DNA of 64,000 nt. Origin: the human T2T-CHM13v2.0 reference genome, Homo sapiens. This document shows positions 523 to 62,470 of the stretch, one piece after another (position 1 is the first letter of the stretch; every line of letters starts with the position of its first letter). The position numbers and the translations under genes were made by a program. The notes beneath the pieces were generated by a model, which was given only the letters and a program-made list of their open reading frames with translations, was not told where the DNA came from and did not search any database. The stretch lies in assembly GCF_009914755.1 (NCBI RefSeq), contig NC_060928.1. One strand, given 5' to 3'.

Positions 523-689
523 TTCCAAGGTGGGATGGTATGAGACTTCATCATGCTACTCAGAATGACATGCAATTTAAAACCCATGATGTGTATTTCT
601 AGAACTTTCCACTGGATATCTTCCATCTGTGGGTGACTAGATAGCAAACTGCAGAAAGCAAAACCCCACGCATAAGAAGGGGACCACTG
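523..689 (+). mobile_element. MER44 (Tigger7-derived DNA transposon), terminal part
   Basis: GAGACTTCATCATGCTACTCAGAATGACATGCAATTTAAAAC and terminal ATAAGAAGGGGACCACTG match the MER44 end. Paralogous to 23710-23866. Confidence 0.8.
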
Positions 690-729
690 TGGAGGTTCTG
701 AGGCATCAGCCAATTGTTACGAGTAATCT

Positions 730-928
730 TGGAAGCAGATCCTCGTGTATGCAGTTGAGCCCTCAGATGAGAACATGTCCTGGCTAACAGACGGTGTCTT
801 CATGAGAACCTGAACCAGAGGTGTCTGGCTAAGCTATGAGTGCATTCCTAACCCTTAAAACCTAGAAGATAAGTATGTGCTGTTTTAAGCTGCAAGGGTT
901 AATTTGTGCAGCAGCAATAGATAAACCA
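730..928 (+). mobile_element. MLT1 (MaLR LTR, MLT1F-like) 3' part
   Basis: GAGCCCTCAGATGAGA..GCTAAGCT..TGCTGTTTTAAGCTGC..AATTTGT..GCAGCAATAGATAA is a typical MLT1 3' end. Confidence 0.65.
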
Positions 929-3900
929 TGTCTATGGCAACAGGCAGCTGCTACTTGGCTTCAGCAAGTGATTGCTGTGCAGGAATAACAGTGGTATTGG
1001 CCAAGAAATGGCCATACTTGAAAGCAGAAAATGTAGACTTTTGCATGAATCTTGCTGTACAGCAGAAGCTGCCTACTGGTACGTAGGTCAGTGTATCTTC
1101 AGACATGCTTTGGCACCTGCAGCATTTTAACAAACTAATTGCATGTTCTGATTCTATCTACCATGGCAGGTCAGGTGATTAAGAAAAAGGCTCTAAACTC
1201 AATCAGTAAATAGATGTTGCTAGGGCTTCAGTACTCCTTCTTCCACTAGTGTCCCTTTACTTACACTCACTTTTGTCAACAGGATAAGCGCATTTGGACC
1301 ATGATAGAATGGATCAGCTAAGGAACATTGACATTGGCTTTTTGAAAATGGAATATGGTTTCATGGATTTCGGGGTCTGGGAGAGCTAAGAAGATCACAA
1401 GAGACTTGTAGAGTCAGACTAGAATGGAGTAAGCAGGATCAGGCATGCCAAGGTCTTGTTAGAGTTTCTACTGCATCAGTTGACACTCATTGCCACCCTA
1501 GAGATCATAATTCTGAGACTTCCCTCACTCAGTACAGGGAGTTCCCTACTAATAGCCTTGAATGGGGTAGCTCTGTCCAATAAAATGAGCTGTCTACATT
1601 TCAACTACTCTAATAGTCTAATTTCACCTGACTCTTATTTTTCAATCTTAAAATTCCTGGATTGGGTTAGATGGAGATTCAAGTCCCATCTACTCCTATT
1701 CAACTGTGGCTCTGGTTCTAATTTAGGGTCTTCTAGCCTGGGCAGTAATTCCCTGCGTACTGATGAAGGAACTGCCTCATAGGCTTGTTTAAAATCAGAT
1801 GACAATTTACCCATGTTTTCCTTAAAAAAAAAAAATTGCCAGCTCTTGGGAACTTAGTATATGTTCTTAAAGGAAAAATGCCCTCTCAGTAGACTGCTTG
1901 TGACTTATGACCTGTCTGGCTCCTAGAAGTACCCATTGTAGGTTGGATGACGGACAGCTGCAGATTCTTGTGCCACCAGTGAAGCAATCTAGACCATTGA
2001 GCATGTTCCAGAGGTGGGGTCAGGCTGGGTAAGCTGAGGCCACAGCCAGCATTAGAATAGGGACCTAAGCCAGAACTGGGGCAGCTGTCAGATGGGGTTC
2101 ATTCAGTCCTCAGTAGGAAGGACTCAGGGAAGGGCAAGTTGAGTGTCTACTTCCCTCTGAGGGGAAGACTAAAGCTGGGCAGCCTGCAAGGGTGTGAAGG
2201 TGAGGGTTGAGAGGCTTACCATGAAGTGCCAGTCAACTCCACGTAGGGTCTGCAATAGAATGCATCCAGGGAGGTCTTACTTTTTTCACCCCGGATGTAG
2301 AAATCTCGAACTGCTTGTCTTTTGGTGTAGAATGGAGGTACGTCTGACTGATGCCAGCTGACCCAAAATAAACCTTACTCTCCACTTCACCTTGCAGATT
2401 TGGAATAGAAGCAGATTCAGAGTTGAAAGCTTTTGGTGGGCTGTCCTGGAGTAGACCTCCACCAATATCCCATGTACCTCCCTCTCCATGTTGGGTGTCA
2501 AATGAGGCTTGTACACATGAGTGCCTATCATGTGACAGAAGCTAAGATTCTAGTTACTGCTGACTCGCATCTTATTCCTGAAGACTTTGGATAAGGCCTA
2601 ACATACCTAGCTGCAGGACACATCTGTCCCCTTTCTGTAGAAAAGGCAGCTAGGCCTTGTAGTGACAGGCCAGGATGGTGTGGTCCTGGTGGAGATGGAG
2701 CAGAAGCATGGAAGTACTGATGTGCTTCTCCTTGAGTATTCCCTTTTGCTCTCTGCTCAGGGAGGCTTACTACCTGAGTCCCATGTCTTGGCTGGACCCA
2801 TCCGTGAGGTGAGGAGATGAGTCTCCTTTCCGGGTAAAGGCCCAGCTTGACTTGGAATCTTGGCTTTTCCCTCTTGATTGTATATATTCTAGTTTCCTCT
2901 AAGATGTAGCTTTAGAAGTACACACTGGGATATTTTGGAGTGGTATGGATTGGACTAGAACTAATTGTGAATTCATTGAAAGAATCGTGTATACTACATA
3001 CATAAGAGACTAGAAAAGATGACTGGGCTGGTTAACTTCACCTACCCTATTCATAAGCACAAATTTTGTGGTGCTGTGGGGCATTTCTAGATGACTGCCA
3101 TCCATGCCTCTTGGCTTCATCAGTGCTCCTTTAGTGCAATCAGTGGACCACTTGCTGTGGTTATTGGCCAACAAGTGCATTTGTAGACATGGTGTATATC
3201 TTATCCTACCTAACCCCATGGTTAAGGTATCTTACTGGATTCTAGATCTTAGCTTAAATGTGGCTGCCTCAAAGTGCCTCTACTTCATGCATGTGAATGA
3301 ATGTGCAACCCCCATTTAGTCTGTCACAACTTGTGACCACATTTATTCCCCACTACTATGAACATGAGGACAGATAAACTACCTCTAGCCCATCACTATG
3401 ATTCTAATGTGTAACTCCATGTTTGAAACAGACTTCATTTCTGACCTGACAGGAAGCTGGGCACTAGAATATGTCTATGGTACTGTTGATTTTGGACAGG
3501 ATCTTCCATGTAGTGGGGAAAACAATAAGAAGTTTGAAGTATGCTGGGGGTGTGATGTGTACAACATAATACTTACGTGAGAATGTCTTATAGTGCCATC
3601 ATTCTGCCTACCACAGAAAGGTCAGGGACCCTATCTCCCCGTGGAAAAAAGGGGTAGGAGGTCCTGAAATGAGTCAAGTGAGTCCATGCTGATGCTGCTC
3701 ATGAGATGTTGACTGTTCCCACCACCATAGCATGAGCTCCAAAGATAGTGTGCTCAGTGGATATGGAGATGGAAGGAGATGCATCTGAGAACCAGTGGGT
3801 CTGTATGCCTCTTGGAAAGATTGTGGTGTTCTTTCTGGTTCTCCTTCACTTTGACCTGTGAGCTTCTCTGTAATCTGCATAAGCTGGCTAGCTGCTTCTA

Positions 3901-4656
3901 ATTCTGGTTGCGCTACACCTTCAGATACTGTTAGACTTAATATTTTCTACCACTTGTTCAGATATGGGATCATAGAACTTGATATGTGTTCAGATTCCTC
4001 CCCCATAACTTTGGCCATTGTCTTAGCTTTGTGGTCTTAAGCATTCATGTCCTTGTGAACTAAGTTTCTCTTCGATGCTTGCCTCTTCATGAGCTTCAGT
4101 GCTCAAGTGTTGTTCCTCTGTTCAGTGAAGCTGTAATGCTATTCCTTGAGCAAAAATAACCAAACCAATCTATACTGACCACAGTTGTGGGTGACTCATA
4201 GATCACAGTTCTGGGTGACCTCTATGGGCCCCAGAACTCATCTGGCAGCACCAACAATATCTGAAGAACGGGCAGGAAGGGCTGTGCTTAGTTTGCGTTT
4301 TCATGGCATGAAGTAATTGTTGCAAGTAGAACTAAAGATGACCATGTGAGCCTCCCTGGAAGGGTTCCATCTGATTGCTGTGGGAGGTTCTATTGGAGAC
4401 CAATTTTTCTTTTTTCTCCAAGGGCCAGAAATCTGGTCTGTAGTCAGTGAAAGCACAGTACTGGAGGGTCCTTGAGTAGTATCCATTTGTTTGACCAGTA
4501 TAGGTGAGATGGGCATTTGGTGTTACACATCTGCTCTCCTTGGGATGTTTATTCCTTCACTCGAATAGACATAAGAATCCTGACAAACTATTTGGTAATT
4601 TAAAAAAAAATAATAAATGTAGCAGTCCATGTGGTTCTTGTTCAGGTCAGATAAGG

Positions 4657-5733
4657 TATTGGGAGAACCCACCCCCAATATTTCAGTGTAGGTCCTTTCT
4701 ATTTTCCATAAGTGTCGGCTGGCTGAGAAATACACAGACAGTACAAAGAGAAGAATTTTACAGCTGGGCCGCCAGGGGTGACATCACATATCAGTAGGAA
4801 CATGATGCTAGCCTGAGTCTCAGACCAGCAAGTTTTTATTAAGGGGTTCAAAAGGAGAGGGGGATGTAAGAACAGGGAGTAGGTACAAAGATCACACACT
4901 TCAAAGGGCAAAAACAGAACCACTAATAAGGGTCTAACAAAGATCACATACTTCTCAGGGAACAGGACAAACGGCAAAAGTGGAACCACTGATAAGGGCC
5001 CAACAAAGATCACAAGGCAAAGAGCAAAAGCAGAACTACTGATAAGGGTCCGTGTTCAGTGGTGCACGTATTGTCTTGATAAACATCTTAAACAACAGAA
5101 AACAGGGTTCAAGAGCAGAGAACCAGTCTGACCACAAATTTACCAGGGTGGAGTTTTTCCCCACCATAGTAAGCCTGAGGGTTCTGCAGGAGACCAGGGC
5201 ATATCTCAGTCCTTATCTCAACTACACAAGACCTTCCCAGAGCAGCCATTTATAGACCTCCCTCCAGGAACACATTCCTTTCCCAGGGTATTAATATTAA
5301 TATTCCTTGCTAGGAAAAGAACTTAGTGATATCTCTACTTGCATGTCCGTTTATAGGCTCTCTGCGAGAAGAAAAATATGGCTCTCTTTGCCCAACCCTG
5401 CAGGCAGTCAGACCTTATGGTTGTCTTCCCTTGTTCCATAAAAATCGCTGGTATTCTGTTCTTTTTCAAGGTGCACTGATTTCATATTGTTCAAACACAT
5501 GTTTTACAATTTTGTACAGTTAACACAATTATCACAGTGGTCCTGAGGTGACGTACATCCTCAGCTTATGAAGATAACAAGATTAAGAGATTAAAGACAG
5601 GCATAAGAAATTATAAAAGTATTATTTGGGAACTGATAAATGTCCATATTAAGATGAAATCTTCACAGTTTATGTTCCTCTGCTGTGGCTCCAGCTTGTC
5701 CCTCCATTTGGGAGTCCCTGACTTCCCACAACA
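4657..5733 (-). mobile_element. MER11 solo LTR (HERV-K11/HML-8 family)
   Basis: Minus strand begins TGTTGTGGGAAGTCAGGGACTCCC and ends AATATTGGGGGTGGGTTCTCCCAATA. Internal AAAGATCACA..GATAAGGG repeats. 6-bp TSD ATAAGG (4651-4656) / GTAAGG (5734-5739). Confidence 0.93.
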
Positions 5734-7629
5734 GTAAGGATTTGTGATCTCTTAGGTCAAAAAAACCCTCAAGGCATTTGAGTTGTCAAATGTGAGTCAT
5801 CATGGCTACCCTCTGTTCTTGGAAGGAGAAGTGGAGACTAAAGATGGCCAGCTTGAAGCTTGCTTTCAAACGCCTGAACTATAACTTGCCTACTAGTTCT
5901 GTCCACACCCATTGCCCAGGATTTAATCACGTGGTCACAACTAGCTGAGAGGCTAGTCATATAGTCTTGGCTGGTGGAGCTGTGTGGCTACCTAACTTGG
6001 AACTCTTACCTACAGGAAGAAAATGGGCATTGGATAACTAGTCCTTTATACCACCTAGGATAAGAAAATCCTTCAGATTTAGTACCAAATGTAACTACAT
6101 GTGTAACAATGTGCTAGCTCACCTGATCAGGTTTCCTCTGCCTCACCCATGGTAGATTGATGGTGTCTAACTTCTTAGAGGTTGGCTACCTGGCTTAGAT
6201 CTGTCTAGCTTTGAGTGTAGTGGTCACACATTAGCTACTGGCAGGTTCAGGCAGAGTTCTAGTGTTCTAAGAACCTCATGTGAGGCCACCACTAAGAACT
6301 CATGGGCCTATGGAGCACCCACCACATTGGTGTTTGTGCACTTTCTGGCCTCTGAGGCTGGTGTCTTCAGTACCTCACCAGAATCTAGGTAAAGCAGCAT
6401 CATGTTGTCTAGCTGCAAGGCCTGGGTAAGGTATAGTAGTAAAATTTTCATATTGTGTCTTGTATTCTTGGGCTATGGAAATGTGAAAATAGGGATTGGG
6501 TACGAAGCTACTTAAGCAGCTCTGGTGAGGGGTGGAAAAATAGCAGGAAGGAACTTCCTCTTATTTCCTGCTGCAGCCCTTCTAGTATACTTAGAGATTT
6601 GGTGCTTTCTAGAAAGACATTTTAATGCTGATCTGAGAGGGTAGATGAGGGAAGCATAGTGGGCCTATTTTTCAGCACCCATGAGTCCATTAACCTTGGT
6701 CAGTAGGTAGCTGTGGCAATTTTGGTTTCTTTGCTTTGAAGAAAGGTTAACTAAGCCCTGAGTGTAGGGCAGGATAGGCCCTAGGAAAAGGGGTAGGTTC
6801 TACTCCTTGAAGCTTTGGCCTTTCATATTAGGTTTCAAGCCTCTATGCTATTCATTGTTGGGTATGAATACTGAGGGTTAGCCAACCACTCCCTATTGCC
6901 TGACTTCAAAGAGGCTGTCAAAGCTAAACATAAGTTCCATCTAACCTCAATAGGTGACAGCGCAAGAACTAATATAACAAATATCTGTACTGAAGGGCTT
7001 TTGGAAAGACTGATCTGATCCAACTAGAGGCATTGCACTGTTATTATAATGGTACCTGAAACATCTATGTGACATATGCAGGTCAGAAGCTATTCTGAGC
7101 CTGAGGTACATGCATCTTGGCAGTCAATGTTAAGATGAGAGAATGGGAACATGGAAAGAACTTGGGTCCCTGATGACACCACTGAGCTTCAGGACTCAGT
7201 AATGACTTACCACCAAAGCTGTTGTATGTGAAAAACAACTTAAAATGTATTCAAGCCAAACTGGTACTCCATGTAGAGAAAACTGAGTTACTTACATGAA
7301 AAACCTCTGAGTAAAATAGACTCTTTGAAATCTTCCCCTAACTTTACCCAAAATATTTCTATAAGTCACATAAGGGGAAAAAGAGGAACAGGGTCAAGTT
7401 CCCTGCCTCAATGCTGCAACTGCACTGTTCTACTGGCTAACAATGCTCACTTAGATGCAAGAAATGAACGGCTCAGCATAACATAAACAAATATTAAGGT
7501 GGACAAGTGTAAGTCCCTTTGTCTTTCTTAAAATGGTCTCAACATCTGAGCCCAGCTCAACTTAGTTGAGTCCCTGTGTTAAGAACTTTTCAGGTAAATT
7601 TAGTCAATTCAGGTTCCATTCCCATTTAG

Positions 7630-8050
7630 TTTGGGTTCTCTAGAAAGGCAAGAAATTGGGCACAAGTAACTTAATGGAGGTGATTCCTGGAAGCATGGTG
7701 AGGGGAAGTGGCTGGGAAGGCAGGTAAACCATGAAAGTGTCAGTGAGTGGGTGAGCCCAGTGGGAAACTGGGGCCAATTCTGAGGACCCTCTGGGACAAT
7801 CCTGAGGAATGGTCTATGTGGATGGCTGGGATGAGCTGCTCACTCCTGCCCCTCACTGGCTGAGGACTCTTCCTGAAGATGAACTGTCAGCACTCCTGGC
7901 CTGTTCTGCATGTAGGCAAGCATGTTTCTGTGGCAGGAGAATATGGGTACAGACAGAGCCTTAGAACACAACATGTGGACGTGTCTGCAGGGGACCTCTG
8001 GTGGCTTCAGCAAATACGCAAGTGGAGCTGAGTCTACCTGACTCACCTGG
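7630..8050 (-). mobile_element. Old MLT1 (J/K-like) LTR remnant; paralogue at about 31045-31480
   Basis: TTGGGTTCTCTAGAAAG..GGGCACAAGTAACTTAATGGAGGTGATTCCTGGAAGCA resembles the antisense MLT1 3' end. Confidence 0.45.
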
Positions 8051-10979: not shown

Positions 10980-11390
10980 AGGGGTCTTCCAGGAAGCAGA
11001 TCCTCAGGCGGAGGTAAACCTCAGGAAACTCACCAGGGAGCGGTCTGGGGTTCCACACCTGTGAAAGGAAGCAGGACCAGGGAGAGGAAGGAGCTGAGCT
11101 GTGATGCAGCTTCCACAGAAGCTCTGGCCAATCCTGTGGGGAGTTGTGATACCTAGATGACCTTTTAGAGCTGAGTTGGGATGAGAGGTCTTGGGTTTTA
11201 TTCCCAGATTGACAAGCACTGGAAGGCAGCTACCTGGGAGGGGATGTGGCCTTAGGTGAGATTCTCTTCAGCTGAGCTAAAGCTTAGGAGGGGCCGACAG
11301 CTAATAGACTCCTGGGGCATCCAGTGGTTGCAGAACAAATCCTTCCTTCCTGAAAGGGGAAATAGTGGCTGCATCCTTTCACCTACTATG
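10980..11390 (-). mobile_element. Old MLT1 (G/H-like) LTR; paralogue at about 31826-32225
   Basis: GGGTCTTCCAGGAAGCAGATCCTCAG..GGAAGCAGGACCAGGGAGAGGAAGGAGCTGAGCTGTGATGCAG..GTGGCCTTAGGTGAG..TTCAGCTGAG are antisense MLT1 motifs. Confidence 0.55.
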
Positions 11391-23350: not shown

Positions 23351-23356
23351 GAAGCA

Positions 23357-36312: not shown

Positions 36313-42418
<6,106 letters not shown>

Positions 42419-42421
42419 TGT

Positions 42422-48578: not shown

Positions 48579-49167
<589 letters not shown>

Positions 49168-49236
49168 AACTGCTTATAACAAAGTTTACCAGCATAGATG
49201 CCATTTTTATAGACAAGGTATTGCTTTAAGATGTCA

Positions 49237-52164
<2,928 letters not shown>

Positions 52165-55100
52165 GTGTGTTCAAACTAGGTTGTTTTTCTTACCCATTAC
52201 CATAGTCTCACTTTGTTATTCCTGTAAGTATATTTAGGGAACAATGTTACCCTCCAAGTCTGGGGATGGAAAAGTGCAGACTGGTAAAAGAAATGCTCTT
52301 GTTTAAGTGTTGTGCACCCAGGTCTGACGTGCATAGATCTACTGGTGAGCCTAACCCTTTACAGAGAAGCCTGCCATGGACCCCACATTGCCTGATGTCA
52401 GAGGCTTGCCACAGAAAGGTTTCAACAGAGGTAGACTGGAACACAAATTCACAGCTGTGGGTGAAATGGCTCTTGCAGCACTTCTTGCCCATGAAGCCAA
52501 CATAGCCTTCTGAGTGGAAGTTACCATCTTAATCCTTCTCATCTTAGTCCTCTTCCGAAGCCTTGTCCTCTTGGTCATTGCCAATCAAATGACTGAAATT
52601 TCACCTGTGAGATTTCAGGAATCTTCTTCACACCTCTACTATGTTTCACACATGCCTTTGTTCAGGGTAAGCATGTTTCTAGAGCTCCAAACTTGTTTTC
52701 TGGCCATTGGTACTCAAATGTTAGCACTAGTTCTGTGAAATGTCACAATACATTTTATTAATCTACCTCATTAATCAGACACAAAATGGTTAGCAAGGGA
52801 AGAATTGCTATTTTAGAACTAGGTTTTGGGCAAGCTTTGACCTGTTCGTGAGTTTCAGGATGATAAACTACTTTTAACAGAGTTCCTGAAATTGACATCT
52901 ACCATTGAAGAAACACTTGGTTTCATTTTACTAAGCTACTCCCTAATGGAAATGTGAGGATCACATTTTCCTTGCTGAATTCCCAACTAAATACCATTCT
53001 AACTTGACTCTGTTTGCAGGAACATGCAGGGGAAGGCAAAGCAAGAGTTGGTGGCAGAGTTACCTGAGTCCTAGTCAGTTCAGACCCAGTGAACCTCCAA
53101 TCAAAACAAATGTGAATTCTGGTCCTGCTGGTCAGTCTGTGTTCACTCCTCTGGCCACTTAAGTTTTGGATGGTTGGTGATAAGCTACCTGTTGAGGCAT
53201 TGATTAGAGCCAAAAGTAGGTAGATAGCTATGCTCAGGAAAGCCAAAAGTAGAAAGATATTGTTTAGAGCAGAAAATGAAAAGACCAGAGCAGAAGAATG
53301 CAAAGTAATTGGCCCAGAGCAAATGGCAGGAGGTAACCTGGCAAACTGTAAAATTAGGATTGGAAAGATGAGGACAAACTTTGGAAGAGAAGATCCATAT
53401 ATACTAGATAACAATATCAAATGGAATAAAGTTAATATCCATAGTGTTAAGATAATAGAGAAATGGACCAAATCATCTGACATAAGATAGTCAACCTCCT
53501 CCTCATGAAGTAGCCTTAGAAGTGTCTTCAGGGGATATGCATGCTTGTCTTCACATCTGAATTCTAGTACTTCAGTTTTAGTTGAAACTAAACTTTTCTG
53601 CTGCTGACTTGTGCCCTCTTACATACAGATGCCAAGATGGAATTAGGTGTACAAGAGTAATGGGAGTGGGAAGAAAGTCTTGTGAGGGAAATAGAGGAGG
53701 GAGTTAGAGGAATTTGGAAGAAGATTAGACCACAAAGCAGGATTGACCTTGTGAAGGAAAGAAGTGTTATGTAGGAAGTGGCTTAGACTGAGGTGCCATA
53801 GTGTTTTGGCAAGGTTTGATGGGTGATTTGGGCTCTGGTACTTGCCATCTAGAGTTCCAAGTGCCTTAAATGGGCCTGCCTTAGCATCCCAACACAAGCG
53901 TCAGTTGGAAAGAGCCAAGGGAAGTGTGTTCTAATGACCAGCACAGTTGACTCCTGTGCTTCAGATCTTCTCTATGGAGGTTCACAGAGCAGTGACTCCT
54001 GGTTTACAGGAGGAAACTTGGAGGATGCTAGTGGGATGAGATACAGCTCCTGCTACCCCAACAACTGATACTAATCCTCTTCCTCCTGCACTAGCCACTC
54101 TAAATTCCATTTGCCCTGAGCCGCCATCTCAGGTGGTTAGTGCTTACCTACTGGTATGAAACAAATGTTAATATTAATGGGTCTGAATCCCTAGTGATCA
54201 TATGCTTTTCAGTTTTGAATGTGAGCTACAATGGGTCAAAGAAGTATGATGACACAAGTCAAACCTGAATTCAACTTATATTAACTTCTCCCTGTGTGTA
54301 GAACAGCCCAAAGCTCTTCCTGCTGACTGTTTTCTTTTCCCTGCAACATGTTTGATGCACAAGGCGATGTGATATCTCATTTGGAGTGATGGAAAATGGC
54401 ACCACTTGGGCTCCTTCCTCATTTTTAGCACCTATGTAGTCTTTCTACTTGGGATAGAGTGTAGAGTATCACATAGATGTTTCTATAATGTGCATCATGG
54501 AGGGCACCAAATTTTCAGTAGTTTAACTGAGTGCTTCTATGCTGTGTGAAGCTGTCTGAACATTGAAGCTACTTGCTTCTGAAAGATGCAGTGACACCAG
54601 TTTATCCCATGATTGAGGTCCACTGTACCTTATATGTGACCTCAGTCCATTGGTGAGATGTCCTTCTGGGTATAATTCCATGCCTGTAGAGGGGACATTG
54701 CAAATAGTGGTGGTAGTGAAGGGTCTCCAACCAAGAAAGACAAACCCATGGCAAGATAGCTATCTATTCCTGTGAGTCTATATTGTAGGCTTTTCTAGAA
54801 GGGAAGGGGTTCAATGTAGTTAACCTGCTACCAAGTAGTATGTTGGTGTCAGAATGCCATATTTAGATCCAATGTTTTATCTCCAGCAGGCTGGACATTC
54901 AGAGGCAGCAGTAGCTAGATTGTCCCTAGAAACTGGCATTCCATGCTGTTGGGTACCTGTGTAGTCTTCATCTTTGTCACTATGGCCACTTATTCTCCCA
55001 TTAGCTGATCCAAGTGGGCTACTGAAAACTGGCACAGCCATTGGGTCTTGTTCACCCAGTCTTCTGTGGTTGATGCTTTGTAGTGGGGCTTAACATAGAA

Positions 55101-55950
55101 CATAAAATCTACCTGTTTTCTACAGGCACGTGCCTTTTCATAGACTTGTTGTCTCAAAATTCCTAATCCCCTTCCGTCTAGTCTACTGACCACGTAGCCA
55201 GGACATTGGCCTCTGCAGAGATGAGGATATATTCTCATCTTGGACTGTGTGTCAATCACCTTAACATAGAGATTCATGGTATAATAGGTTACATTTTCAA
55301 GTCTCCAAAGATGTAGCCTAGAGGCATATTTTCCTTGGTGCTATAACCATAGAGCATAGTCAGGATGCTTTAGAATTGGAAATAGTGTCCTCAGCATTTG
55401 GAACAGAAGTTTGTTTCCTTACCCCAAAATGGTATTAGGTTTACTGACAGAGGCTTATAAACTCCTGAACAAAAATTTGTGATTTAGGAATTTACTTGTC
55501 TTTGGCTCTTTTGATAGAGATGAGGATCTTTCACTTGATTAAAAATAAAGTCTTTAAAGTACAATAGGATTCTCATTTAGTAGCCAAACTTGAAAGCAGA
55601 CTGGCCCTGGGGTATTCATAGTACTAGTCAGTAATGCCTAGGCCTGATGACAAAACCATGAGCCAAAACTTAAAATGAAGGAATACATGTCAGTTTTTGG
55701 CTGAGGTTAGTGGCAGAAATGGATCTCTTGCTCACGAGGTGTTTTCTGACTTCAAGCCCTTTCTTTTGGACAAAGTGAAACTTGCTCTCCTTACTTTTAG
55801 GATGGAGTTGAAATCTGTAGTGTCTTTAGACCTGTGATGCTATTGGTTTTTGTAAGACTCCCTGTACTGAGCGAGTGTGAAGGCCTAGTTTGCGTTTCCT
55901 AAGAAGGCAGAGTTCCCAGGTTAAAAGGAGCTCTATAAGAAGTGTGTGTA

Positions 55951-56202
55951 CGCATATTCTCACTCATAGGTGGGAATTGAACAATGAGATCACATGGACA
56001 CAGGAAGGGGAATATCACACTCTGGGGACTGTGGTGGGGTCGGGGGAGGGGGGAGGGATGGCATTGGGAGATATACCTAATGCTGGATGACACGTTGGTG
56101 GGTGCAGCGCACCAGCATGGCACATGTATACATATGTAACTAACCTGCACAATGTGCACATGTACCCTAAAACTTAAAGTATAATAAAAAAAAAAAAAAA
56201 AA
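55951..56202 (+). mobile_element. Very young 5'-truncated L1 (L1Hs/L1PA2 boundary, ACG/A type), 252 bp
   Basis: GAGATCACATGGACAC..AATATCACACTCTGGGGACTGTGGTGGGGTCGGGGG matches the L1Hs 3'UTR; ACG at 56092-56094; A at the Ta 'G6015' position; pure A tail; perfect 14-bp TSD AAGAAGTGTGTGTA (55937-55950 / 56203-56216). Confidence 0.96.
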
Positions 56203-56999
56203 AAGAAGTGTGTGTAAACACAGTTGGGCTTGGGTGTACACAAGTCCTGCCTTCTAGCCCCCTGTCTGAGTGTGCCAATATGTATCCAAAGTCAATTCTA
56301 TTCCACAAGATTCCTAGAGGACGGGAAAGTCTGAGTGGTGGGGCCTGGCCCATCCACTATGGCAGTCACCTGGATGTTGCAGGGGAGCGGCCACTGAGCC
56401 ACACGTGACGTTCCTGGTTTGGGAATAGTATATCATTGGTGTTACTTCTGTGGCACAGCTCTACATTCTACAAGCTTAAGACCCATCTACATCTTTTCAG
56501 GTCTCACAGAAGATGCAGTAGGACTGATCATTTTGTAAATCACTTTCCTCTGAGGACTGTACTGGCCTGGAGATGAATATTCAACTCTTCATTTCCCACT
56601 ACCAGTAGAGTGGTTGAGTGTGGATCCTCCCTGGCATCACACTGCATGTATAAAGCCAGTTCTTGCACTCTAGGCTTTTGAACCCATAGTGGATGGTGCT
56701 TTCTAATTTTAGAAGGTAGAACCAACTCTGGATTAGGTGTGTTGGGTTGGATAAATAAGCCATGTGGAAAGTGCTCTTGGTGAGGAGCCACACACTAGGC
56801 AAGAAGCCATGCTAGAGGTAAGATCACTGGAATCTAGTGCCATAACAAGTGGGAGAGTTAGGGTGTAGTTACAGAAATGAGAGGAATCCATAACCATGAC
56901 AGGTCAGGGTTGCCAGCATAGGGCAGAACATGTCACTTGGGAGTTGAGGAAGACTGCTATATTCTGGCATTCCAGGCACAGAGAGGATTTGCATTCAAG

Positions 57000-57330
57000 G
57001 ACCTATTTAGAAACAGGTTGAAGTGGAATTTGACATGGAGTAGGTATGTAGAAATCAAATCCTATCTAAGGATGAGAAAGGAAGCAGGATTGGGTGGCAG
57101 GAACACTTAACTACAGTGTGGACCCAGAAATTCCTTGGCCAGTATGGTCAAGTGTGTGGCCCATCACAGTTGTTTAATGGTGGCCTGGGATCACTGGCCT
57201 TCACTGACCTGCTGTACTCAATGATTGGATGAGGGATGCTAGGGGAAGGGCAGGCCCTTGGAGCTGAGGCAAACCCTGTAGGAGGTGGTGGCTGGAGGCT
57301 GCTGGCTGTGCTCCCAGCACCTGAGGCAAT
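57000..57330 (-). mobile_element. Old MLT1 (G-like) LTR remnant
   Basis: GGAAGCAGGATTGGG..CCTTGGCCAGT..ATTGGATGAGGG..CCCTTGG..AGCTGAGGCAA..GCTCCCAGCA are antisense MLT1 motifs. Confidence 0.5.
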
Positions 57331-58569
57331 AAGTCCTTATTGAAGAGAGATCTGGAAATATATTCCCATGGCCTCCAAATCCAGTGGAATTGTCTACCCT
57401 TTCTTGGCTCTGGCTTTTGTTCACACATATGGATAGGCCCAGCACAGCTTTCTTGCCTAGGCCCTACCTTTCCTACTGAGTTCCAAGTGAAATCTGAGCT
57501 TCAGATACTATGACTGAAGTCAGAAGCCATGACTATGACTAGTTTGTTAGGAGACAACTGTAGTCAACTTAGATTCTTTTTAACTAGGGTTAGTATAGGA
57601 GGCTTATGTTTTGCAGAGTCTAAACTTTCAGAACCATCGCGTAGCATATATGGCAAGAGGGGTGGTGCAGGTGGTTGTCACGATGCTTAATGTCACTTGC
57701 ATTGTTAGCATGCCATACTACTTTGGTCAACTTTGCAATTTCCTTGTCCCAGATGGTTTGGACTGCAGGGAGGATTTTCTTTGTCTTGGTCATGTGTAGG
57801 TTCAGGATTTAGGACCTTTTAAAGCTACCCTTTATCTTGACCCTCTGTATTTTGCCACTTGCATGGAAATGTATCCAAGGAGGCACAATCCAGCCAGAAC
57901 TTTGTCACTGGCTGGAGCTGACCAATTATAGGCTTCTTGTCCCAGGCTTTTCAGGTTGAAGATGATGTCTAGGCAAGAGAATCATGTATAAGTTCTCTTA
58001 CAGAAATAAATAGAATAGAAAATATTCAGGACAGGGAAGTGTACTCCAACCCTTTGCTTGCCTCATGACAAAGTGAATGTCTCCCACTTAGACCCTGAGC
58101 CATCAGCAGATGAGAATAGGAGGAAAAGCCTAAAAGGTCTCTTACTGCCTGGAATTGGTGCTTGTATAAGCATGGAGGCCAGATAGGCAATATGGGCTGT
58201 ACAGGTACTAGAGTTGATCCTGAGGCAAGGCAACTCCTATGTGAAGCCTATCATTCCTTGAGTAGCAGCCTTCCAAACAGAACAACCCTTCAGCTTGTCA
58301 CTGTAAGGGACTGGAGTTTTAGGAAGTGGCATATTAACACAGTGTTAAAAATAACTGCTGGTCTGTATCCTGACACATGTAAGTCCCCTGTCTCAAGCCA
58401 GACCTCTATTATACCCTGACCTTCTCAGCAATGAATACAATGTCCTCAATAGCAGAGGTCCCTAACTGAGGTCTCCAAAGCTGTGGCACAGGGAGTAACT
58501 GAGCCACAAGGCAAAGTGTAAGATATTAGTGATAGAACCCAGGGCACAGAAGGCAGTCCGTGCAGGGTG

Positions 58570-59120
58570 GGAAGCCTGTGACATGGCCCCCATTAATATT
58601 TGCTTCTGGTATCCTTCCTATGGTAAGAGCCTTCACTCGAATGTGGATGTAGTGACTTGTTGCTTGACAAACAGATAATGGAAGAAGTGATGGCGTGTCA
58701 TCTGTTATGAGTCTATAAAGACTGTGGCTTCTCTCAGGAGTCCTTACTCTTTATTGGTCTTTGAATATGTTTCCTAGGAGAAATGAGCTGTGTTAACCAA
58801 CCCTTGGGGCGGCCCACTTACTGTGGCCAAAACGAGAAACCTGTTTGACAGACTGTGAGGAACTGAAGCTCACCACCAACTTTGAGCTGAGAAGTAGACA
58901 TTGTGAGGTGTGGGAACTGCCATGAGTCCACCTTGCAGCAGATCCCCTTACTAGTTGAGCCTTGAAACGAGAGTACATCCCCAGCTGAGATCAACTGTCT
59001 CATGTGACATTCACGTAGGTGCCTCTAGCTTCTTTCCCTCAGTCCCTAAACTGGGGCAGTGGTCAAAGACAAATGTTTGCTATGCCATGTTGCTAATTTT
59101 TCAGGTAAGTTCAGTCCATA
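58570..59120 (+). mobile_element. MLT1F-like LTR without the MER44 insertion (paralogue of about 23070-24115)
   Basis: TAGTGACTTG..AAACAGATAATGGAAGAAGTGATGG..AAAGACTGTGGCTTC..TGAGGAACTGA..GCAGATCCCC..AGTTGAGCCTTGA. Confidence 0.6.
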
Positions 59121-60744
59121 AAAACATTCAAAAACTTATGTTAAATGGTGAATTGTAAAACAGAAATGAAATGCTGCTAGTAGATTCAGTCTGATCTTCA
59201 GACATGTTTTGTTCAATGGGTCAAAAATGGGTCAAAAATGGATCAAAGTAAATCCATGTTCTTATTCTTTCACCACAGTCAGCCTAGTGACAACATGAAT
59301 GCTCTAGTTCCTCAGTAAGTGAGACTACTAAAATGGGAGCCTGCATCTTTCTCCACTGTCCTTTTACATGCAATTACCTGACTCTACCTTTAGCCTGTCA
59401 ACAGGTTAAAGGTATTTGGATGAAAATACAGTGGGGCCCTGAATCACCTAAGAACTATAGGTGCTATCTTCTGAAAATGGAAAAAGGGGGGGATAGGAGT
59501 GGGTGTAGTACTAGAGATCCTACCAGGCTAAGGACAGGGATGCTACACCCTTGAGGATCCATTGTCTGAGATGGTCCCTCTTAGGACTACCCTGGAGACC
59601 ATCTTCCTGAGATCTGGATTCACCCCTCAGTACAGGGAGCTTAGCTACTCACAGTCACATAGAAGTCATGTGATGCACATATTAACCAGGCTAGTAGACA
59701 CACTTTACTAAGAACTAGGTGAGACTACTCTTAAAGCTCTTGGGCTGGGTTAGATGTATATTTAAGTCTCAACTATTCCCACCTGTGAGTTGTAGCGCTA
59801 ATCCTAACTTAAAATCTTGTGGTCCAGAAGTAATTCCTCTCCTACTGGTAAGGGACATGTCCTGTAGGCTTGCTGGGCATCAGAGGGCAAACTATCCATG
59901 CTGTCCTCAATCCTTCCAGCTCCTAGGGAAACTGGTAAATGTTTGACAAGGCAAAATAATCTAAATGCAGGAGTTGAAGTGATTTAGGTTGTTGGCTCCT
60001 ATAAGGTACAGTAACTTCAGACTGGCAGGGAGTGGACAGTTGTGGATTCTTGCACCACCTGTGGGGAACAAGTCTCCAGGGTGTTACAGGGGTGGGGCAT
60101 GGGGAGAATGAGCTGTATCAGCAGCTGGTGTCAGAATAGGGACCCCAGCTGGAACTGGAGCAGCTGTTGCAGCTGTGGGACCACTCAATCCCCAGAATAG
60201 GAGGGACCTGGGGAGGGCAGGTTGGACTTTCCATCTCTGAGGGGAAGGTGGAAGCTGGACAGCCTGCAGAGGATTAGGGTTGTGATGCTTGGCCTGATGA
60301 AGTGCCCATCTACTGCAGGCAGGGTCTGTGCAGAACATATCCAAGGAGGTCTTGCTCATTCTTCCTGGTTGTAGAATTCTTCAGAACAATTGGCCTTGGC
60401 ATTGAAGGTAGCTCAAAACCCATTATAGTGTCCTGGAGTAAAACTGATCCTATAACCCATGTACCTCCTTCCCTCTTTCCATGGCAGGTGTGAAGTATGC
60501 ATATGAGGGGACTGCATTGGGAACATCTGGAAGCTGAGGTTCTTGTTACTCTGAATCCATTTTGATTGTGACATTCTACTTGGGCTTTGGCTGCTTCAGA
60601 GCTCATGCCAGCAAGAAGGTCTTTTTCCCCTTCTATTATAAGGCAGCTGGACCTGTAGCATCAGCTCAGGATGGCATAGTCCCGGGGAGGAGGAGGAGGC
60701 TGTGCTTAAGTCCTAGCCCCTAACTGTTCCCTGGTGCTCTCTGC

Positions 60745-62470
60745 CCATGCTCTTGGGCAGCTCAACCCCTGTGGCTTTGTAGGGTACCATATCAGGGAAG
60801 CAGCTTCCAATATTTCAACATAGGTTCTTTCTATTTTCCCCAAGTGTCATCTGGTCTGAGAAAGAGTACAAAGAGAGGAATTTTACAGCTGGGCCACCAG
60901 GGGTGACATCACATATCGGTAGGTCTGTGATGCCCACCTGAGCTGCAAAACCAGCAAGTTTTTATTAGGGTTTTCAAAAAGGGAGGGGGTTGCACAGACA
61001 GGGAGTAGGTCACAAAGATCACATGTTTCAAAGGGCAAAAGGCAGAGCAAGGATCACATGTTTCTGAGGAAACAGGACCAGGGCAAAATCAGAAACTCCT
61101 GATAAGGGTCTATGTTCAGCAGTGCACGTATTGTCTTGATAAACATCTTAACAGAAAACGGAGTTTGAGAGCAGAGAACTGGTCTGACCTCAAATTTACC
61201 AGGGCTGGGGTTTCCCAATCCCAGTAAGCCTGAGGGTACTGCAGGAGACCAGGGCGTGTCTCAGTCCTTATCTCAACTGCATAGGACAGACACTCCCAGA
61301 GTGGTCAATTATAGACCTCCCCCCAGGAATGCAATTCTTTTCCTAGGGTCTTAATATTATATTCCTTGCTAGGAAAAGAATTTAGCAATATCTCTCCTAC
61401 TTTTGCACATCCATTTATAGGCTCTCTGCAAGAAGAAAAATATGGTTCTTTTTGCCAAACCCCACAGGCAGACAGACCTTATGGTTGTCTTCCCTTGTTC
61501 CCTAAAATTGCCATTATTCTGTTCATTTTCAAGGTGCAGTGATTTCATATTGCTCAAACACACATGTTTTACAATCAATTTGTACAGTTAATGTAATCAT
61601 CACAGGGTCCTGAGGTGATGTACATCCTCAGCTTATGAAGATAACAGGATTAAGAGATTAAAGTAAGACAGGTGTAAGAAATTATAAGAGTATTATTAGG
61701 GAAGTGATAAATGTTCATGAAATCTTCACAATTTATGACCTCTGCTGTGGCTCCAGCCAGTCCCTCAGTTTGGGGTCCCTGACTTCCAACAACAGTGCAG
61801 CCTCCCTCCCAGCTGCTTTCACAGGCTGGCATTGAGTGTCTGGTTTTCCAGGCACATGATGCAAGCTGTCAGTGGATCTACCATTCTGGGGTCTGGAGTA
61901 TGGTGGCCCTCTTCTCACAGCTCCACTAGGGTGCTGCCCCAGTAGGGACTCTGTCAGGTTGCTCCAGCCCCACATTTCCCTTTTGTATTACCTTAGCAGA
62001 GTTTCTCCATGAGACAACTGCCCCTGCAGCAAACTTCTGCCTGGACATCCAGGCATTTCCGTATATCCTCAGAAACATAGGCAGAGGTTCCCAAACCTCA
62101 ATTCTTGACTTCTGTGCACCTGCAAGCTTAACACCATATGGAAGCTGCCAAGGTTTTGTTTGCTCCCTCTGAAGCCATGGCCCAAGCTGTACCTTGGCCT
62201 CTTTTAGTCATGGCTGGAGTGGCTGGAACACAGGGCACTAAGTCCCTATACTGCACACAGCACAGGGACCCTGGGCCTGGCCCAGGCCCATGAAACCATT
62301 TTCTCTTCCTAGGCCTCCAGGCCTGTGATGGGAGGGCCTGCTGTGAAGACCTCTGACATTTCCTGGAGACATATTCCCCATTGTCTTGGGTATTAAATTT
62401 TTTCTCCTTGTTACTTATGAAAATTTCTGTAGCCAGCTTGAATTATTCAGAAAATGGGATTTTCTTTTCT
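60745..62470 (-). mobile_element. THE1 internal region (MaLR-int), interrupted by MER11 and by an L1
   Basis: CTTGGGCAGCTC.ACCCCTGTGGCTTTG.AGGGTAC / AGCCTCCCTCC..CTGCTTTCACAGGCTGGCATTGAGTGTCTG..GCAAGCTGTCAGTGGATCTACCATTCTGGGGTCTGGAG..CAGAAAATGGGATTTTC. Confidence 0.9.
60790..61794 (-). mobile_element. MER11 solo LTR inserted in THE1-int
   Basis: Minus strand begins TGTTGTTGGAAGTCAGGGACCCCAAAC. Body homologous to 4657-5733 with fewer internal GATAAG repeats. TSD is degenerate (GTACCA/GTGCAG). Confidence 0.92.

What the first reader, a model, noticed from the sequence alone, without database searches (positions are those of the whole stretch)
523..60746. The 'unique' DNA is a cryptic, very old head-to-tail array of non-coding units (period about 23 kb)
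Seen: most non-L1 segments have one to three collinear, same-strand paralogues inside the window (0.5-11.4 ~ 23.7-32.2 kb; 21.0-25.9 ~ 57.7-60.7 kb; 12.9-16.8 ~ 33.6-35.8 ~ 46.8-54.7 kb; 35.4-45.6 ~ 54.3-56.5 kb; an extra partial copy at 45.8-46.75 kb). Homology runs across repeat/flank junctions, so it is not just repeated TE families. Identities look like about 60-80%, below the 90% cut-off of standard segmental-duplication tracks, so the array may be unannotated. Inference: repeated amplification of a gene-less unit over a long period points to an RNA-producing or structural locus.
Basis: partly seen in the sequence, partly recalled or inferred. Interest (0 to 1): 0.85.

Follow-up and report, generated by a model that had tools for sequence, protein, structure and literature searches.

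The report
Fossil tandem duplication array, chr4q21
The apparently unique DNA of this gene desert next to CXCL13 is a decayed head-to-tail array of about ten very old copies of one stretch of non-coding DNA, most likely a neutral relic of repeated local duplication rather than a working locus.

Summary
With dispersed repeats removed, self-alignment of a 264-kb stretch around the window gives 342 same-strand paralogous hits (148.7 kb aligned) against 1 inverted hit of 37 nt. In four TE-free queries totalling 14.5 kb, every genome-wide match over 300 nt lies within chr4:80.557-80.750 Mb on the + strand. The array runs from about window -45 kb to +155 kb. It has seven recurring end-to-start junctions, and their spacing is 14-40 kb, not a fixed 23 kb. 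Most paralogy is 64-72% identical, with nested younger layers at 79-89% and two patches at 93-100%.

The functional inference is not supported. I found no conserved cores, no CpG islands, no Rfam or tRNA match, no coding signal, and no strand-asymmetric substitution of the kind long-term germline transcription leaves. Two processed pseudogenes were copied along as passengers: DPPA2-like in three units and FTL-like in three units.

Best reading: a neutral fossil of serial tandem duplication, an ancient segmental duplication below the 90% cut-off. That kind is already known (SDquest, PMC5991524). My four literature searches found nothing on this locus.

The parts
524..23705 (+). Unit U1, the most complete copy, used here as the reference. 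I divide it into blocks A 0.5-4.7 kb, B 5.7-8.1, C 9-11.8, D 12.6-16.7, E 16.7-21.0 and F 22.3-23.7.
   Evidence: All 47 of 47 1-kb tiles find non-self + strand copies. The second half matches window -15.9..-1.85 kb at 72-86%. The first half matches U2 at 73%.
23706..36301 (+). Unit U2, blocks A to D. It lacks reference positions 8.1-10.7 kb and is cut by the L1 insertion that follows it.
   Evidence: Collinear chain 23706-35439 to 524-16349, K2P 0.270 over 7646 ungapped columns.
36302..44520 (-). L1 insertion that interrupts U2. It is a later event, not array sequence. Its 5' part is present twice: 40326-42412 ~ 42419-44515, 82.8%.
   Evidence: Pfam RVT_1, Exo_endo_phos and Transposase_22 domains on the minus strand. 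The flanks 36075-36176 and 44533-44830 are adjacent in the paralogue at 54889-55469.
44521..45700 (+). Tail of U2 beyond the L1 insertion.
   Evidence: 44533-44830 ~ 55177-55469, 65%.
46136..59432 (+). Unit U3: rearranged D pieces, then E, then F. It carries later Alu and L1 insertions at 48692-49567 and 50146-51881.
   Evidence: nhmmer map: 46182-46753, 46766-47115, 47743-48569, 53081-54655, 56465-56959 and 57375-59432 map to reference 12.9-24.5 kb.
58897..60771 (+). Start (block A) of the next unit, U4. The F-to-A junction lies at about 58.9 kb.
   Evidence: Maps to reference 692-2776. It groups with the copies at 113.3 and 129.9 kb, 79-83% identity and 100% support.
52073..52968 (-). DPPA2-like processed pseudogene (LOC100421141), a passenger copied with the unit.
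   Evidence: Pfam Dppa2_A at 52354-52584(-), E 9e-11, and again in the genome scan. The DCR and Dppa2_A exon homologies abut here but are 3.4 kb apart in the chr3 gene. Paralogous copies lie at 91078-91990 and 121687-122574.
8965..9151 (-). Weak remnant of a ferritin-light-chain processed pseudogene, homologous to the annotated FTLP9 in unit U-2.
   Evidence: nhmmer homology is continuous across the FTLP9 interval -42790..-42343 to reference 8003-9980. FTL gene exon pieces hit 8965-9071 and 9121-9151 (E 0.003 and 0.26, weak). Pfam Ferritin did not detect it.
4675..5735 (+). Dispersed repeat of about 1.08 kb, inserted into U1 after duplication. A second copy lies at 60807-61796.
   Evidence: 39 scored genome copies at 88-91% on many chromosomes and both strands. 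It is absent from U2, where 27821 and 27847 are adjacent.
17012..17376 (+). Dispersed LTR-like repeat of about 370 nt, inserted into U1 only.
   Evidence: About 38 genome copies at 82-86%. The flanks are contiguous in six other units, for example -10599/-10575 and 144074/144081.
19612..21061 (+). Young layer: 93-100% identical to window -8.4..-6.9 kb, while the adjoining 17541-19000 is only about 78% identical to its partner.
   Evidence: Identity profile in 100-nt steps.

Best explanation
This is a fossil tandem segmental-duplication array. One stretch of ordinary non-coding DNA of roughly 20 kb was duplicated head to tail. Misaligned units then recombined unequally, or were re-copied locally, many times. 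That produced about ten full or partial units over about 200 kb (chr4:80.555-80.755 Mb), split into a proximal and a distal sub-array.

The units have since decayed neutrally to 62-75% identity. They were broken up by deletions and by L1, Alu and LTR insertions. In primates they were partly re-duplicated or converted, giving layers at 79-89% and patches at 93-100%. Two processed pseudogenes (DPPA2-like and FTL-like) and one old dispersed repeat landed in single units and were then copied along as passengers.

Shown: the anatomy, the local and same-strand nature of the copies, the nesting of ages, the passengers, and the lack of any sign of constraint. Inferred: unequal crossing-over as the motor, the absolute dates, and the absence of function.
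For: 1. Orientation. After removing 47 dispersed-repeat segments (31 kb) plus the L1 body and the 1.08-kb element, there are 342 plus-strand hits (148,663 nt) against 1 minus-strand hit (37 nt) in 264 kb.

2. Local only. Query 1000-3000 gave 7 of 7 candidates, all at chr4:80.569-80.730 Mb on the + strand. Query 13520-16990 gave 9 of 9 matches local and +. Query 17400-20800 gave 7 local + matches, one 263-nt chr21 match and one local 37-nt inverted match. Query 5771-11400 gave 8 local + matches and two matches of 60 nt or less elsewhere.

3. Sharp edge. Only 0.2% of the 31.9 kb of non-repeat DNA at -80..-45 kb has a paralogue, against 60-79% inside the array.

4. Unit-specific insertions interrupt homology that is otherwise continuous: the L1 at 36.3-44.5 kb, the 1.08-kb element and the 370-nt LTR-like element.

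5. The F-to-A junction recurs seven times.

6. Staggered ages. The ML trees show nested clades at 100% support. K2P distances are 0.195-0.370. Of the aligned bases, 99.3 kb of 148.7 kb lie at 64-72% identity and 6.7 kb at 84-92%. Two patches reach 93-100%.

7. Passengers. The intronless DPPA2-like copy sits at the same place in three units. FTLP9 homology is present in three units. An old repeat of about 380 nt is shared by three units.

8. No constraint. Conservation is flat. Only 16-24% of gaps are multiples of 3. There is no codon periodicity, maximum z 2.47 against 2.36 in the null. Among the 150 longest ORFs the only Pfam matches above the families' own cut-offs are L1 domains and Dppa2_A. 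CpG o/e is 0.127. There are no Rfam or tRNA matches.
Against: - No other species could be examined, so purifying selection across species is untested. Flat similarity among paralogues does not exclude short conserved elements or a function that depends on copy number rather than sequence.
- Activity continued to very recent times: a 0.8-kb patch is 99-100% identical although its flanks are 70-75% identical. Ordinary homologous recombination does not easily explain that between units so diverged.
- The array has a uniform G>C skew of 0.056-0.078, against 0.00-0.03 in the flanks. I attribute it to inheritance from the founding unit.
- An annotated lncRNA overlaps the last units and was reported as induced together with CXCL13 (PMC12904459, one passage).
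- My repeat mask is home-made, from copy depth and strand. No RepeatMasker or Dfam library was available, so old MIR, L2 or DNA elements inside the units are not identified.
Confidence: 0.8

Rival explanations
1. The array is a decayed tandem gene cluster. The founding unit carried a functional gene, for example an immune or reproductive family member near the chemokine genes. The gene was amplified and later lost in the lineage to humans, leaving only unrecognisable exons.
For: - Units of 15-25 kb in head-to-tail order are typical of gene clusters.
- The uniform G>C and T>A excess on the + strand resembles the coding strand of a transcribed unit.
- The same CCNG2-CNOT6L interval holds tandem cxcl13 duplicates in Xenopus (PMC8811506, passages read).
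Against: - No IL8/chemokine domain lies in the array. At E<=10, 85 matches from 109 candidates were listed, and the nearest is CXCL13 at chr4:80,948,570.
- Among the 150 longest ORFs of the window, only L1 domains and Dppa2_A reach their family's cut-off.
- No blocks are better conserved than the rest.
- There is no codon periodicity, though only 70 gapless windows could be tested, so power is low.
- Gap lengths look non-coding.
- The genome-wide DNA searches find no paralogue at the CXCL13 locus.
- The mouse chr5 Pramel cluster is described as a rodent-specific translocation and expansion (PMC2680341, passages read). That it lies in the syntenic interval is my recollection and was not checked.
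Confidence: 0.1
2. The array is a functional non-coding locus. It would be kept or repeatedly enlarged because it produces RNA (a lncRNA or small-RNA cluster), or because it acts structurally or regulatorily, for example in the CXCL13 regulatory landscape or in replication timing.
For: - Amplification recurred over a very long time, including patches at 93-100% identity.
- The annotated lncRNA LOC105377295 spans window 134.6-150.2 kb over the last units (hub table). It is listed as up-regulated together with CXCL13 in stimulated macrophages, log2FC 2.57 (PMC12904459, one passage).
- Compositional skew is higher than in the flanks.
Against: - There is no Rfam family or tRNA in the window.
- No core is conserved across copies.
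- There are no CpG islands other than Alus, and CpG depletion is extreme.
- Among 2244 polarised changes, substitutions show no transcription-type asymmetry: A>G 331 versus T>C 337, G>A 372 versus C>T 346.
- A preprint reports no RNA polymerase II signal for at least 300 kb around the CXCL13 start site in three cell lines (10.1101/2024.08.31.609994, passages read).
- The lncRNA lies on the opposite strand, outside the window, and covers only the last two units.
Confidence: 0.08
3. The off-diagonal matches are only copies of transposable-element families (old L1, ERV or MaLR elements) that happen to lie in the window.
For: Real dispersed repeats are present and largely unmasked in NCBI's file. 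They include the 1.08-kb element, the 370-nt LTR-like element, an old 380-nt repeat, L1 pieces, and a 263-nt element shared with chr21.
Against: - Collinear chains longer than 15 kb cross these elements.
- The strand ratio is 342 to 1.
- TE-free queries hit only this 200-kb interval of the genome.
- No TE protein domains occur outside the L1.
- The flank control shows almost no paralogy, 0.2%.
Confidence: 0.01

Closest known systems
Ancient segmental duplications of 70-80% identity, as catalogued by SDquest (Pu, Lin and Pevzner 2018, PMC5991524; passages read) and by SEDEF and BISER (PMC6129265, PMC8932185; search listing only)
   Same: Low-copy paralogous non-repeat DNA longer than 1 kb, below the 90% cut-off of the standard track, mosaic in structure, and found only by low-stringency self-alignment after removing common repeats.
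   Different: Here the copies form one contiguous head-to-tail array of about ten units with seven recurring junctions. Much of it (62-70% identity) lies below even the 70% floor of SDquest. Whether those catalogues list this locus could not be checked, because the supplementary archive could not be read.
Macrosatellites, that is large-unit tandem arrays such as D4Z4 or DXZ4 (recalled, not examined here)
   Same: Kilobase-scale units in head-to-tail order at one locus.
   Different: Macrosatellite units are nearly identical, uniform in length, often CpG-rich and transcribed, and variable in copy number. These units are 62-86% identical, 14-40 kb apart, extremely CpG-poor (o/e 0.127) and individually truncated and rearranged.
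Tandem gene clusters and their pseudogene graveyards, for example the chemokine clusters on 4q (recalled) and the tandem cxcl13 pair in Xenopus (PMC8811506)
   Same: Serial local duplication by unequal exchange, nested ages, and location in the same CCNG2-CNOT6L interval as CXCL13.
   Different: No founder gene can be recognised. The only coding remnants are processed (intronless) pseudogenes of the unlinked genes DPPA2 and FTL, which were passengers.
Imprinted non-coding RNA arrays, such as the snoRNA or miRNA clusters SNORD116 and C19MC (recalled)
   Same: Gene-less repeated units amplified in tandem.
   Different: Those arrays keep a conserved RNA core in every unit. Here there is no Rfam match and no conserved core.

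Membership tests
Ancient tandem segmental duplication | Paralogous segments longer than 1 kb made of non-repeat DNA | tested here: met
   524-4167 ~ 23706-27336 spans 3775 columns at 73%. In total 148.7 kb is aligned after repeat removal.
Ancient tandem segmental duplication | Low copy number and confined to one locus, not dispersed | tested here: met
   In four TE-free queries, every match longer than 300 nt lies in chr4:80.557-80.750 Mb. The exceptions are a 263-nt chr21 match and two matches of 60 nt or less.
Ancient tandem segmental duplication | Head-to-tail orientation with recurring unit junctions | tested here: met
   342 plus hits against 1 minus hit. The F-to-A junction occurs at -34.0, 0.5, 23.7, 58.9, 98.6, 112.6 and 129.9 kb.
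Ancient tandem segmental duplication | Collinearity across the boundaries of inserted repeats | tested here: met
   The flanks of the L1 (36.3-44.5 kb), of the 1.08-kb element and of the 370-nt LTR-like element are adjacent in paralogous units.
Ancient tandem segmental duplication | Old age: shared by distant mammals | not testable with these tools
   No other mammalian genome is held. Age is inferred only from K2P 0.20-0.37 and branch lengths.
Macrosatellite | Near-identical, homogenised units of uniform length | tested here: not met
   Mean pairwise identity is 0.63-0.68. Junction spacing is 14-40 kb, and units are truncated or rearranged.
Macrosatellite | Copy-number polymorphism in the population | not testable with these tools
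   Only one human assembly is held.
Dispersed transposable-element family | Many genome-wide copies in both orientations | tested here: not met
   Searches found local + strand copies only. By contrast, the true repeats gave 750-9376 first-look candidates.
Tandem protein-coding gene cluster (decayed) | Recognisable exons or domains of one family in each unit | tested here: not met
   Pfam on the 150 longest of 304 ORFs of at least 60 aa: above the families' own cut-offs only L1 domains and Dppa2_A; the other 154 ORFs were not scanned. No IL8 domain in the array. Sensitivity for exons this decayed is low.
Tandem protein-coding gene cluster (decayed) | Exon-like islands of higher similarity, or codon periodicity of differences | tested here: inconclusive
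   No island exceeds 0.78 in multi-copy blocks. Periodicity equals the null, but only 70 gapless windows were available. Only 16-24% of gaps are multiples of 3.
Non-coding RNA array (snoRNA, miRNA or lncRNA cluster) | A conserved RNA core or a known RNA family in every unit | tested here: not met
   0 Rfam matches at gathering score and 0 tRNAs in the window. No conserved core. Only the window, not the flanks, was scanned with Rfam.
Non-coding RNA array (snoRNA, miRNA or lncRNA cluster) | Sustained germline transcription, seen as strand-asymmetric substitution | tested here: not met
   A>G 331 versus T>C 337 (ratio 0.99). G>A 372 versus C>T 346 (0.91, p 0.23). 2244 polarised changes in all.

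The most novel reading that the evidence does not exclude
The interval is a duplication hotspot that has stayed active for more than 100 million years, and its copy number or repeated architecture is itself maintained. The array would then serve, for example, as a spacer, insulator or lncRNA-bearing part of the CXCL13 regulatory landscape. Renewed amplification and conversion, down to a 0.8-kb patch that is 99-100% identical between units whose flanks are only 70-75% alike, would be driven by a mechanism other than ordinary homologous exchange.
Probability: 0.08. Interest if true: 0.6.

Novelty: new member of a known kind. Interest (0 to 1): 0.3.

Why it matters
About 200 kb of a supposedly unique gene desert between CCNG2 and CXCL13 is really about ten decayed copies of one sequence. 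This matters in three practical ways. Conservation scores, enhancer calls, and read or probe mapping in this interval can be confused by paralogy of 65-90%. The two patches at 93-100% identity are possible substrates for rearrangement. The array also shows how much old duplication lies below the 90% and even the 70% cut-offs of the current catalogues.

The passengers give internal time markers for reconstructing how a tandem array grows and dies. They are two processed pseudogenes, one old repeat shared by three units, and several insertions found in single units. Nothing here points to a new kind of element or to a function.

Tried and rejected
- Translating whole frames for Pfam failed because of stop codons. 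I scanned the 150 longest stop-to-stop ORFs instead; the remaining 154 ORFs of 60-73 aa were not scanned.
- Two genome-wide searches with 10-kb pieces were swamped by young dispersed repeats, so they could not show the array paralogues. I replaced them with TE-free pieces.
- Decayed PRAME-like cluster: rejected, because the mouse chr5 Pramel cluster is described as a rodent-specific translocation (PMC2680341).
- Decayed chemokine cluster: no IL8 domain in the array.
- The 231-aa ORF at 52926-53618(-) and the 135-aa ORF at 18148-18552(-) have no Pfam match. The second is not kept open in its chr21 relative. I treat both as chance ORFs.
- The Pfam Ferritin scan did not detect FTLP9 or its paralogues. 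The FTL link therefore rests on weak, collinear blastn and tblastx hits to the chr19 gene and on the hub's annotation.
- The codon-periodicity test had little power, with 70 windows.
- The SDquest supplementary lists could not be read because they are a rar archive, so I cannot say whether the locus is already catalogued.
- Searches for the locus names LOC100421141, LOC100421142, DPPA2P and 'DPPA2 pseudogene' found nothing about the structure of the locus.
- The CXCL13 super-enhancer preprint concerns elements in and just downstream of CCNG2 and near CNOT6L, not clearly this array.


Full report
**Setting.** The window is human T2T-CHM13 chr4:80,600,001-80,664,000, in the gene desert between CCNG2 and CXCL13 (hub table; one search confirms the coordinates). 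The genome could be searched, and 200 kb of flanks were fetched. All coordinates below are window coordinates. Negative values and values above 64,000 lie in the flanks.

Yes. Unmasked blastn of the window against itself gives 37 off-diagonal alignments at word size 11 and 59 with distant-homology scoring. The longest non-L1 match is 524-4664 ~ 23706-27821, 72.4% identical over 4349 columns.

Its neighbours form one collinear, same-strand chain:
- 5771-6532 ~ 27847-28579
- 6591-8135 ~ 30004-31558
- 10849-11394 ~ 31770-32231
- 12496-13382 ~ 33255-34147
- 13521-13711 ~ 34350-34542
- 16079-16349 ~ 35173-35439

The reversed, uncomplemented window used as a null gives 4 hits and 177 nt, against 28.4 kb for the real sequence.

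**2. Is it only transposable elements?**

No. There are four lines of evidence.

(a) Strand. In the 264-kb stretch I flagged as dispersed repeat every segment that had any inverted self-match or at least 9 direct ones. That gave 47 segments and 31 kb. I added the L1 body and a 1.08-kb element to the mask. What remains gives 342 direct hits (148,663 nt) and one inverted hit of 37 nt. Copies of transposable elements would lie in both orientations.

(b) Genome-wide copy number. Repeat-free pieces of the unit match only this locus:
- Window 1000-3000 gave 7 of 7 candidates, all at chr4:80,568,969-80,730,221 on the + strand, at 65-74%.
- Window 13520-16990 gave 9 matches, all local and +.
- Window 17400-20800 gave 7 local + matches, one 263-nt match on chr21 and a local 37-nt inverted match.
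- Window 5771-11400 gave 8 local + matches and two matches of 60 nt or less elsewhere.

True dispersed repeats behave differently in the same tool:
- A 1.08-kb element at 4675-5735 has 39 scored copies at 88-91% on many chromosomes and both strands, from 2816 first-look candidates.
- A 370-nt LTR-like element at 17012-17376 gave 9376 first-look candidates.

(c) Homology crosses insertion boundaries.
- The flanks of the 8.2-kb L1 at 36302-44520 (36075-36176 and 44533-44830) lie 187 nt apart in the paralogue at 54889-55469.
- The flanks of the LTR-like element are contiguous in six other units.
- The 1.08-kb element is absent from unit 2, where 27821 and 27847 are adjacent.

(d) An internal control. 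Upstream of the array (-80 to -45 kb), 0.2% of 31.9 kb of non-repeat DNA has a direct paralogue. In 523-60746 the figure is 78.9%. Counting only paralogues inside the window it is 50.3%.

**3. Anatomy.**

I used 1-kb tiles of the most complete unit (524-23705) as nhmmer queries. All 47 of 47 tiles find non-self direct copies. Ten tiles have 1-3 inverted matches:
- Seven of them overlap the LTR-like element or the L1 fragment at 20828-22344.
- Two overlap the 37-nt inverted match.
- I did not look at the two inverted matches of tile 23001-24000.

The merged map shows an array from about -44.7 kb to about +150 kb, with paralogy continuing to about +155 kb.

The end-to-start junction (block F followed by block A) recurs at -34.0, 0.5, 23.7, 58.9, 98.6, 112.6 and 129.9 kb. 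The spacings are 34.5, 23.2, 35.2, 39.7, 14.0 and 17.3 kb. The '23-kb period' therefore holds only for the first pair inside the window.

Block E (reference 16.7-19 kb) is present about twelve times. Units are often truncated or rearranged. In the distal half the order is E, pseudogene, D, E, F, A. A stretch at 64-85 kb is mostly not paralogous, with 19-22% coverage.

**4. Ages.**

Most aligned paralogy, 99.3 kb of 148.7 kb, is 64-72% identical. Another 6.7 kb is 84-92% identical. K2P distances between unit pairs are 0.195-0.370.

Maximum-likelihood trees of four blocks give nested clades with 100% support:
- In block A, a proximal clade (-31, 1.5 and 24.7 kb) stands against a distal clade (59.6, 98.9, 113.3 and 129.9 kb).
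- Terminal branches are 0.07-0.34 substitutions per site.

Younger layers overlie this:
- 17541-19000 is about 78% identical to its partner at -10.4 kb, while 19612-21061 is 93-100% identical to it.
- 94588-95388 is 99-100% identical to 107.7-108.4 kb, with flanks at 70-75%. One search gives 97% over 848 nt for the same pair.

The absolute dates are inference from general knowledge of human neutral divergence, not a tool result. Root-to-tip distances near 0.3 would place the first duplications around or before the eutherian radiation. The 79-89% layers would fall in primates. The near-identical patches would be recent.

**5. Passengers.**

DPPA2-like pseudogene. The annotated DPPA2 pseudogene at 52240-52932(-) carries a Dppa2_A domain (E 9e-11). 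It has paralogues at the same place in two further units, 91078-91990 and 121687-122574:
- The first of these has a DCR domain.
- The second has Dppa2_A.

In all three copies the DCR and Dppa2_A homologies abut, whereas they are 3.4 kb apart in the chr3 gene. The copies are therefore duplicates of one intronless retrocopy. They are nearer to the chr3:112.024-112.029 Mb gene than to its neighbour. That this gene is DPPA2 is my recollection, not a tool result.

FTL-like pseudogene. The annotated ferritin-light-chain pseudogene FTLP9 (-42790..-42343) lies inside continuous homology to reference 8003-9980 and to -26.7..-25.5 kb. Pieces of the chr19 FTL gene hit all three places collinearly on the minus strand, but weakly: tblastx E 1e-7, 0.003 and 0.03. 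The Pfam Ferritin model saw none of them.

Old dispersed repeat. A repeat of about 380 nt, 70-78% identical to its genome copies, sits at the same place in the units at 94.9, 108.0 and 126.7 kb.

These passengers show that the units were ordinary DNA receiving insertions, and that amplification went on after each insertion.

One inconsistency remains. The unit at 148 kb groups with the pseudogene-bearing units in the block D tree but lacks the pseudogene. Loss of the pseudogene or weak tree resolution (81/87 support) could explain this.

**6. Signs of function.**

I found none.
- Conservation: mean pairwise column identity is 0.63-0.68 in the four multi-copy blocks. The best 60-column windows reach 0.73-0.78. 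Between units 1 and 2 the best 100-nt windows reach 0.88-0.89, at 7785-7910, and the older copies do not share this island.
- CpG: observed/expected is 0.127 over the 264 kb. The 5 island-like windows coincide with segments my filter had flagged as Alu-like.
- RNA families: no Rfam family at gathering score and no tRNA in the window.
- Protein domains: Pfam on the 150 longest of the 304 stop-to-stop ORFs of at least 60 aa gives, above the families' own cut-offs, only L1 domains at 37-43 kb on the minus strand and Dppa2_A. Three further matches (SHQ1, GED, Med11) fall below their families' cut-offs, and all three lie inside the L1.
- Gaps: only 16-24% of gaps between paralogues are multiples of three.
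- Codon periodicity: differences show none, with maximum z 2.47 against 2.36 in the permuted null. Only 70 gapless windows existed.
- Chemokine domains: there is no IL8 domain in the array.

The + strand is G-rich. GC skew is 0.056-0.078 in the array, against 0.03 and 0.00 in the flanks. I polarised 2244 substitutions with outgroup units, and they show no complementary-strand asymmetry: A>G 331 versus T>C 337, and G>A 372 versus C>T 346. Only C>G 81 versus G>C 62 is nominally off (p 0.012, uncorrected for six tests). The skew is therefore best read as inherited from the founding unit, not maintained by transcription or fork polarity. From my knowledge of transcribed regions, an asymmetry of about 1.25-fold would have been detectable with these counts.

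**7. Mechanism.**

Shown:
- The copies are local, direct, collinear and nested in age.
- They carry passengers.
- They are interrupted by later insertions.

Inferred:
- One initial tandem duplication was followed by rounds of unequal exchange between misaligned units. This gave two sub-arrays, partial units and deletions.
- The units then decayed neutrally.
- Later there were local re-duplication or conversion events.

The 99-100% patch inside 70-75% flanks is hard to obtain by ordinary homologous conversion. It may reflect a replication-based template switch. This remains unexplained.

**8. Comparison with what is known.**

Ancient segmental duplications at 70-80% identity are a described class. 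SDquest was built to find them, and its authors state that many remain undetected (PMC5991524, abstract and passages read). SEDEF and BISER address the same range (seen in the search listing only). This locus fits that class as a tandem case. Parts of it lie below the 70% floor.

It is not a macrosatellite, a transposable-element family, a recognisable gene cluster or an RNA array (see the membership table).

Four literature searches found nothing describing this array. The SDquest lists could not be opened, so prior cataloguing is not excluded. The locus would also be expected to show in self-chain tracks. That is recalled, not checked.

**9. Verdict.**

It is not supported in inferring an RNA-producing or structural role. 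The most likely reading, at 0.8, is a neutral fossil of serial tandem duplication. Interest is modest: it is a clean, datable example of a known kind, with practical consequences for mapping and for conservation analysis in the CXCL13 desert.

Noticed in passing
window 36302-44520 (minus strand): L1 with RT, endonuclease and ORF1 domains. Its 5' part (ORF1 plus upstream) is present twice in tandem: 40326-42412 ~ 42419-44515, 82.8%. This could be two nested or adjacent L1 insertions, or an internal duplication.
   Followed up: partly
window 4675-5735 and 60807-61796: A dispersed repeat of about 1.08 kb, 88-91% identical to at least 39 genome copies on both strands. NCBI's file masks only about 250 nt of it, so the hub's '21% masked' understates the repeat content. 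I could not name the family because no repeat library was available.
   Followed up: partly
window 18226-18488; also -9740..-9482 and 120684-120955; L028:2217-2487 (chr21:29,203,217-29,203,487): A stretch of about 270-290 nt in block E has one relative elsewhere in the genome, on chr21. It is 78% identical there, which is higher than among the array copies. On chr21 it is bounded by a (TGAA)n run and an Alu. It is probably a low-copy ancient repeat fragment. No ORF is conserved across the copies.
   Followed up: partly
outside the window: 94588-95388 ~ 107674-108447: A 0.8-kb patch is 99-100% identical between two units whose flanks are only 70-75% identical (97% over 848 nt). This points to a very recent conversion or template-switch event. 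Whether it is polymorphic is unknown.
   Followed up: partly
window 19612-21061, continuing into the L1 fragment to about 22830, versus -8.4..-5.9 kb: A stretch 93-100% identical in 100-nt steps lies within a duplication that is otherwise about 78% identical. A 37-nt inverted match (19513-19549 versus -8469..-8433, 97%) sits at its edge.
   Followed up: partly
window 134589-150249 (outside the window, minus strand): The annotated lncRNA LOC105377295 overlaps the last two array units. One paper's table lists it as up-regulated (log2FC 2.57) together with CXCL13 in stimulated macrophages (PMC12904459, one passage read).
   Followed up: no
whole array, about -45 to +150 kb: There is a uniform G>C skew of 0.056-0.078 on the + strand, against 0.03 and 0.00 in the flanks. 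Substitutions since duplication show no matching asymmetry. The nominal excess of C>G over G>C (81 versus 62) is unexplained.
   Followed up: yes
window 52926-53618 (minus strand): A 231-aa open frame lies directly upstream of the DPPA2 pseudogene. I estimate a frame this long would arise by chance about 0.1 times in the window. It has no Pfam match and a leucine- and serine-rich, low-complexity look. I judge it compositional.
   Followed up: partly
window 64000-85000 (outside the window): A stretch of about 20 kb inside the array is largely free of paralogues, with 19-22% coverage. Its origin was not examined. It could be a later insertion, a unique spacer, or older repeats.
   Followed up: no
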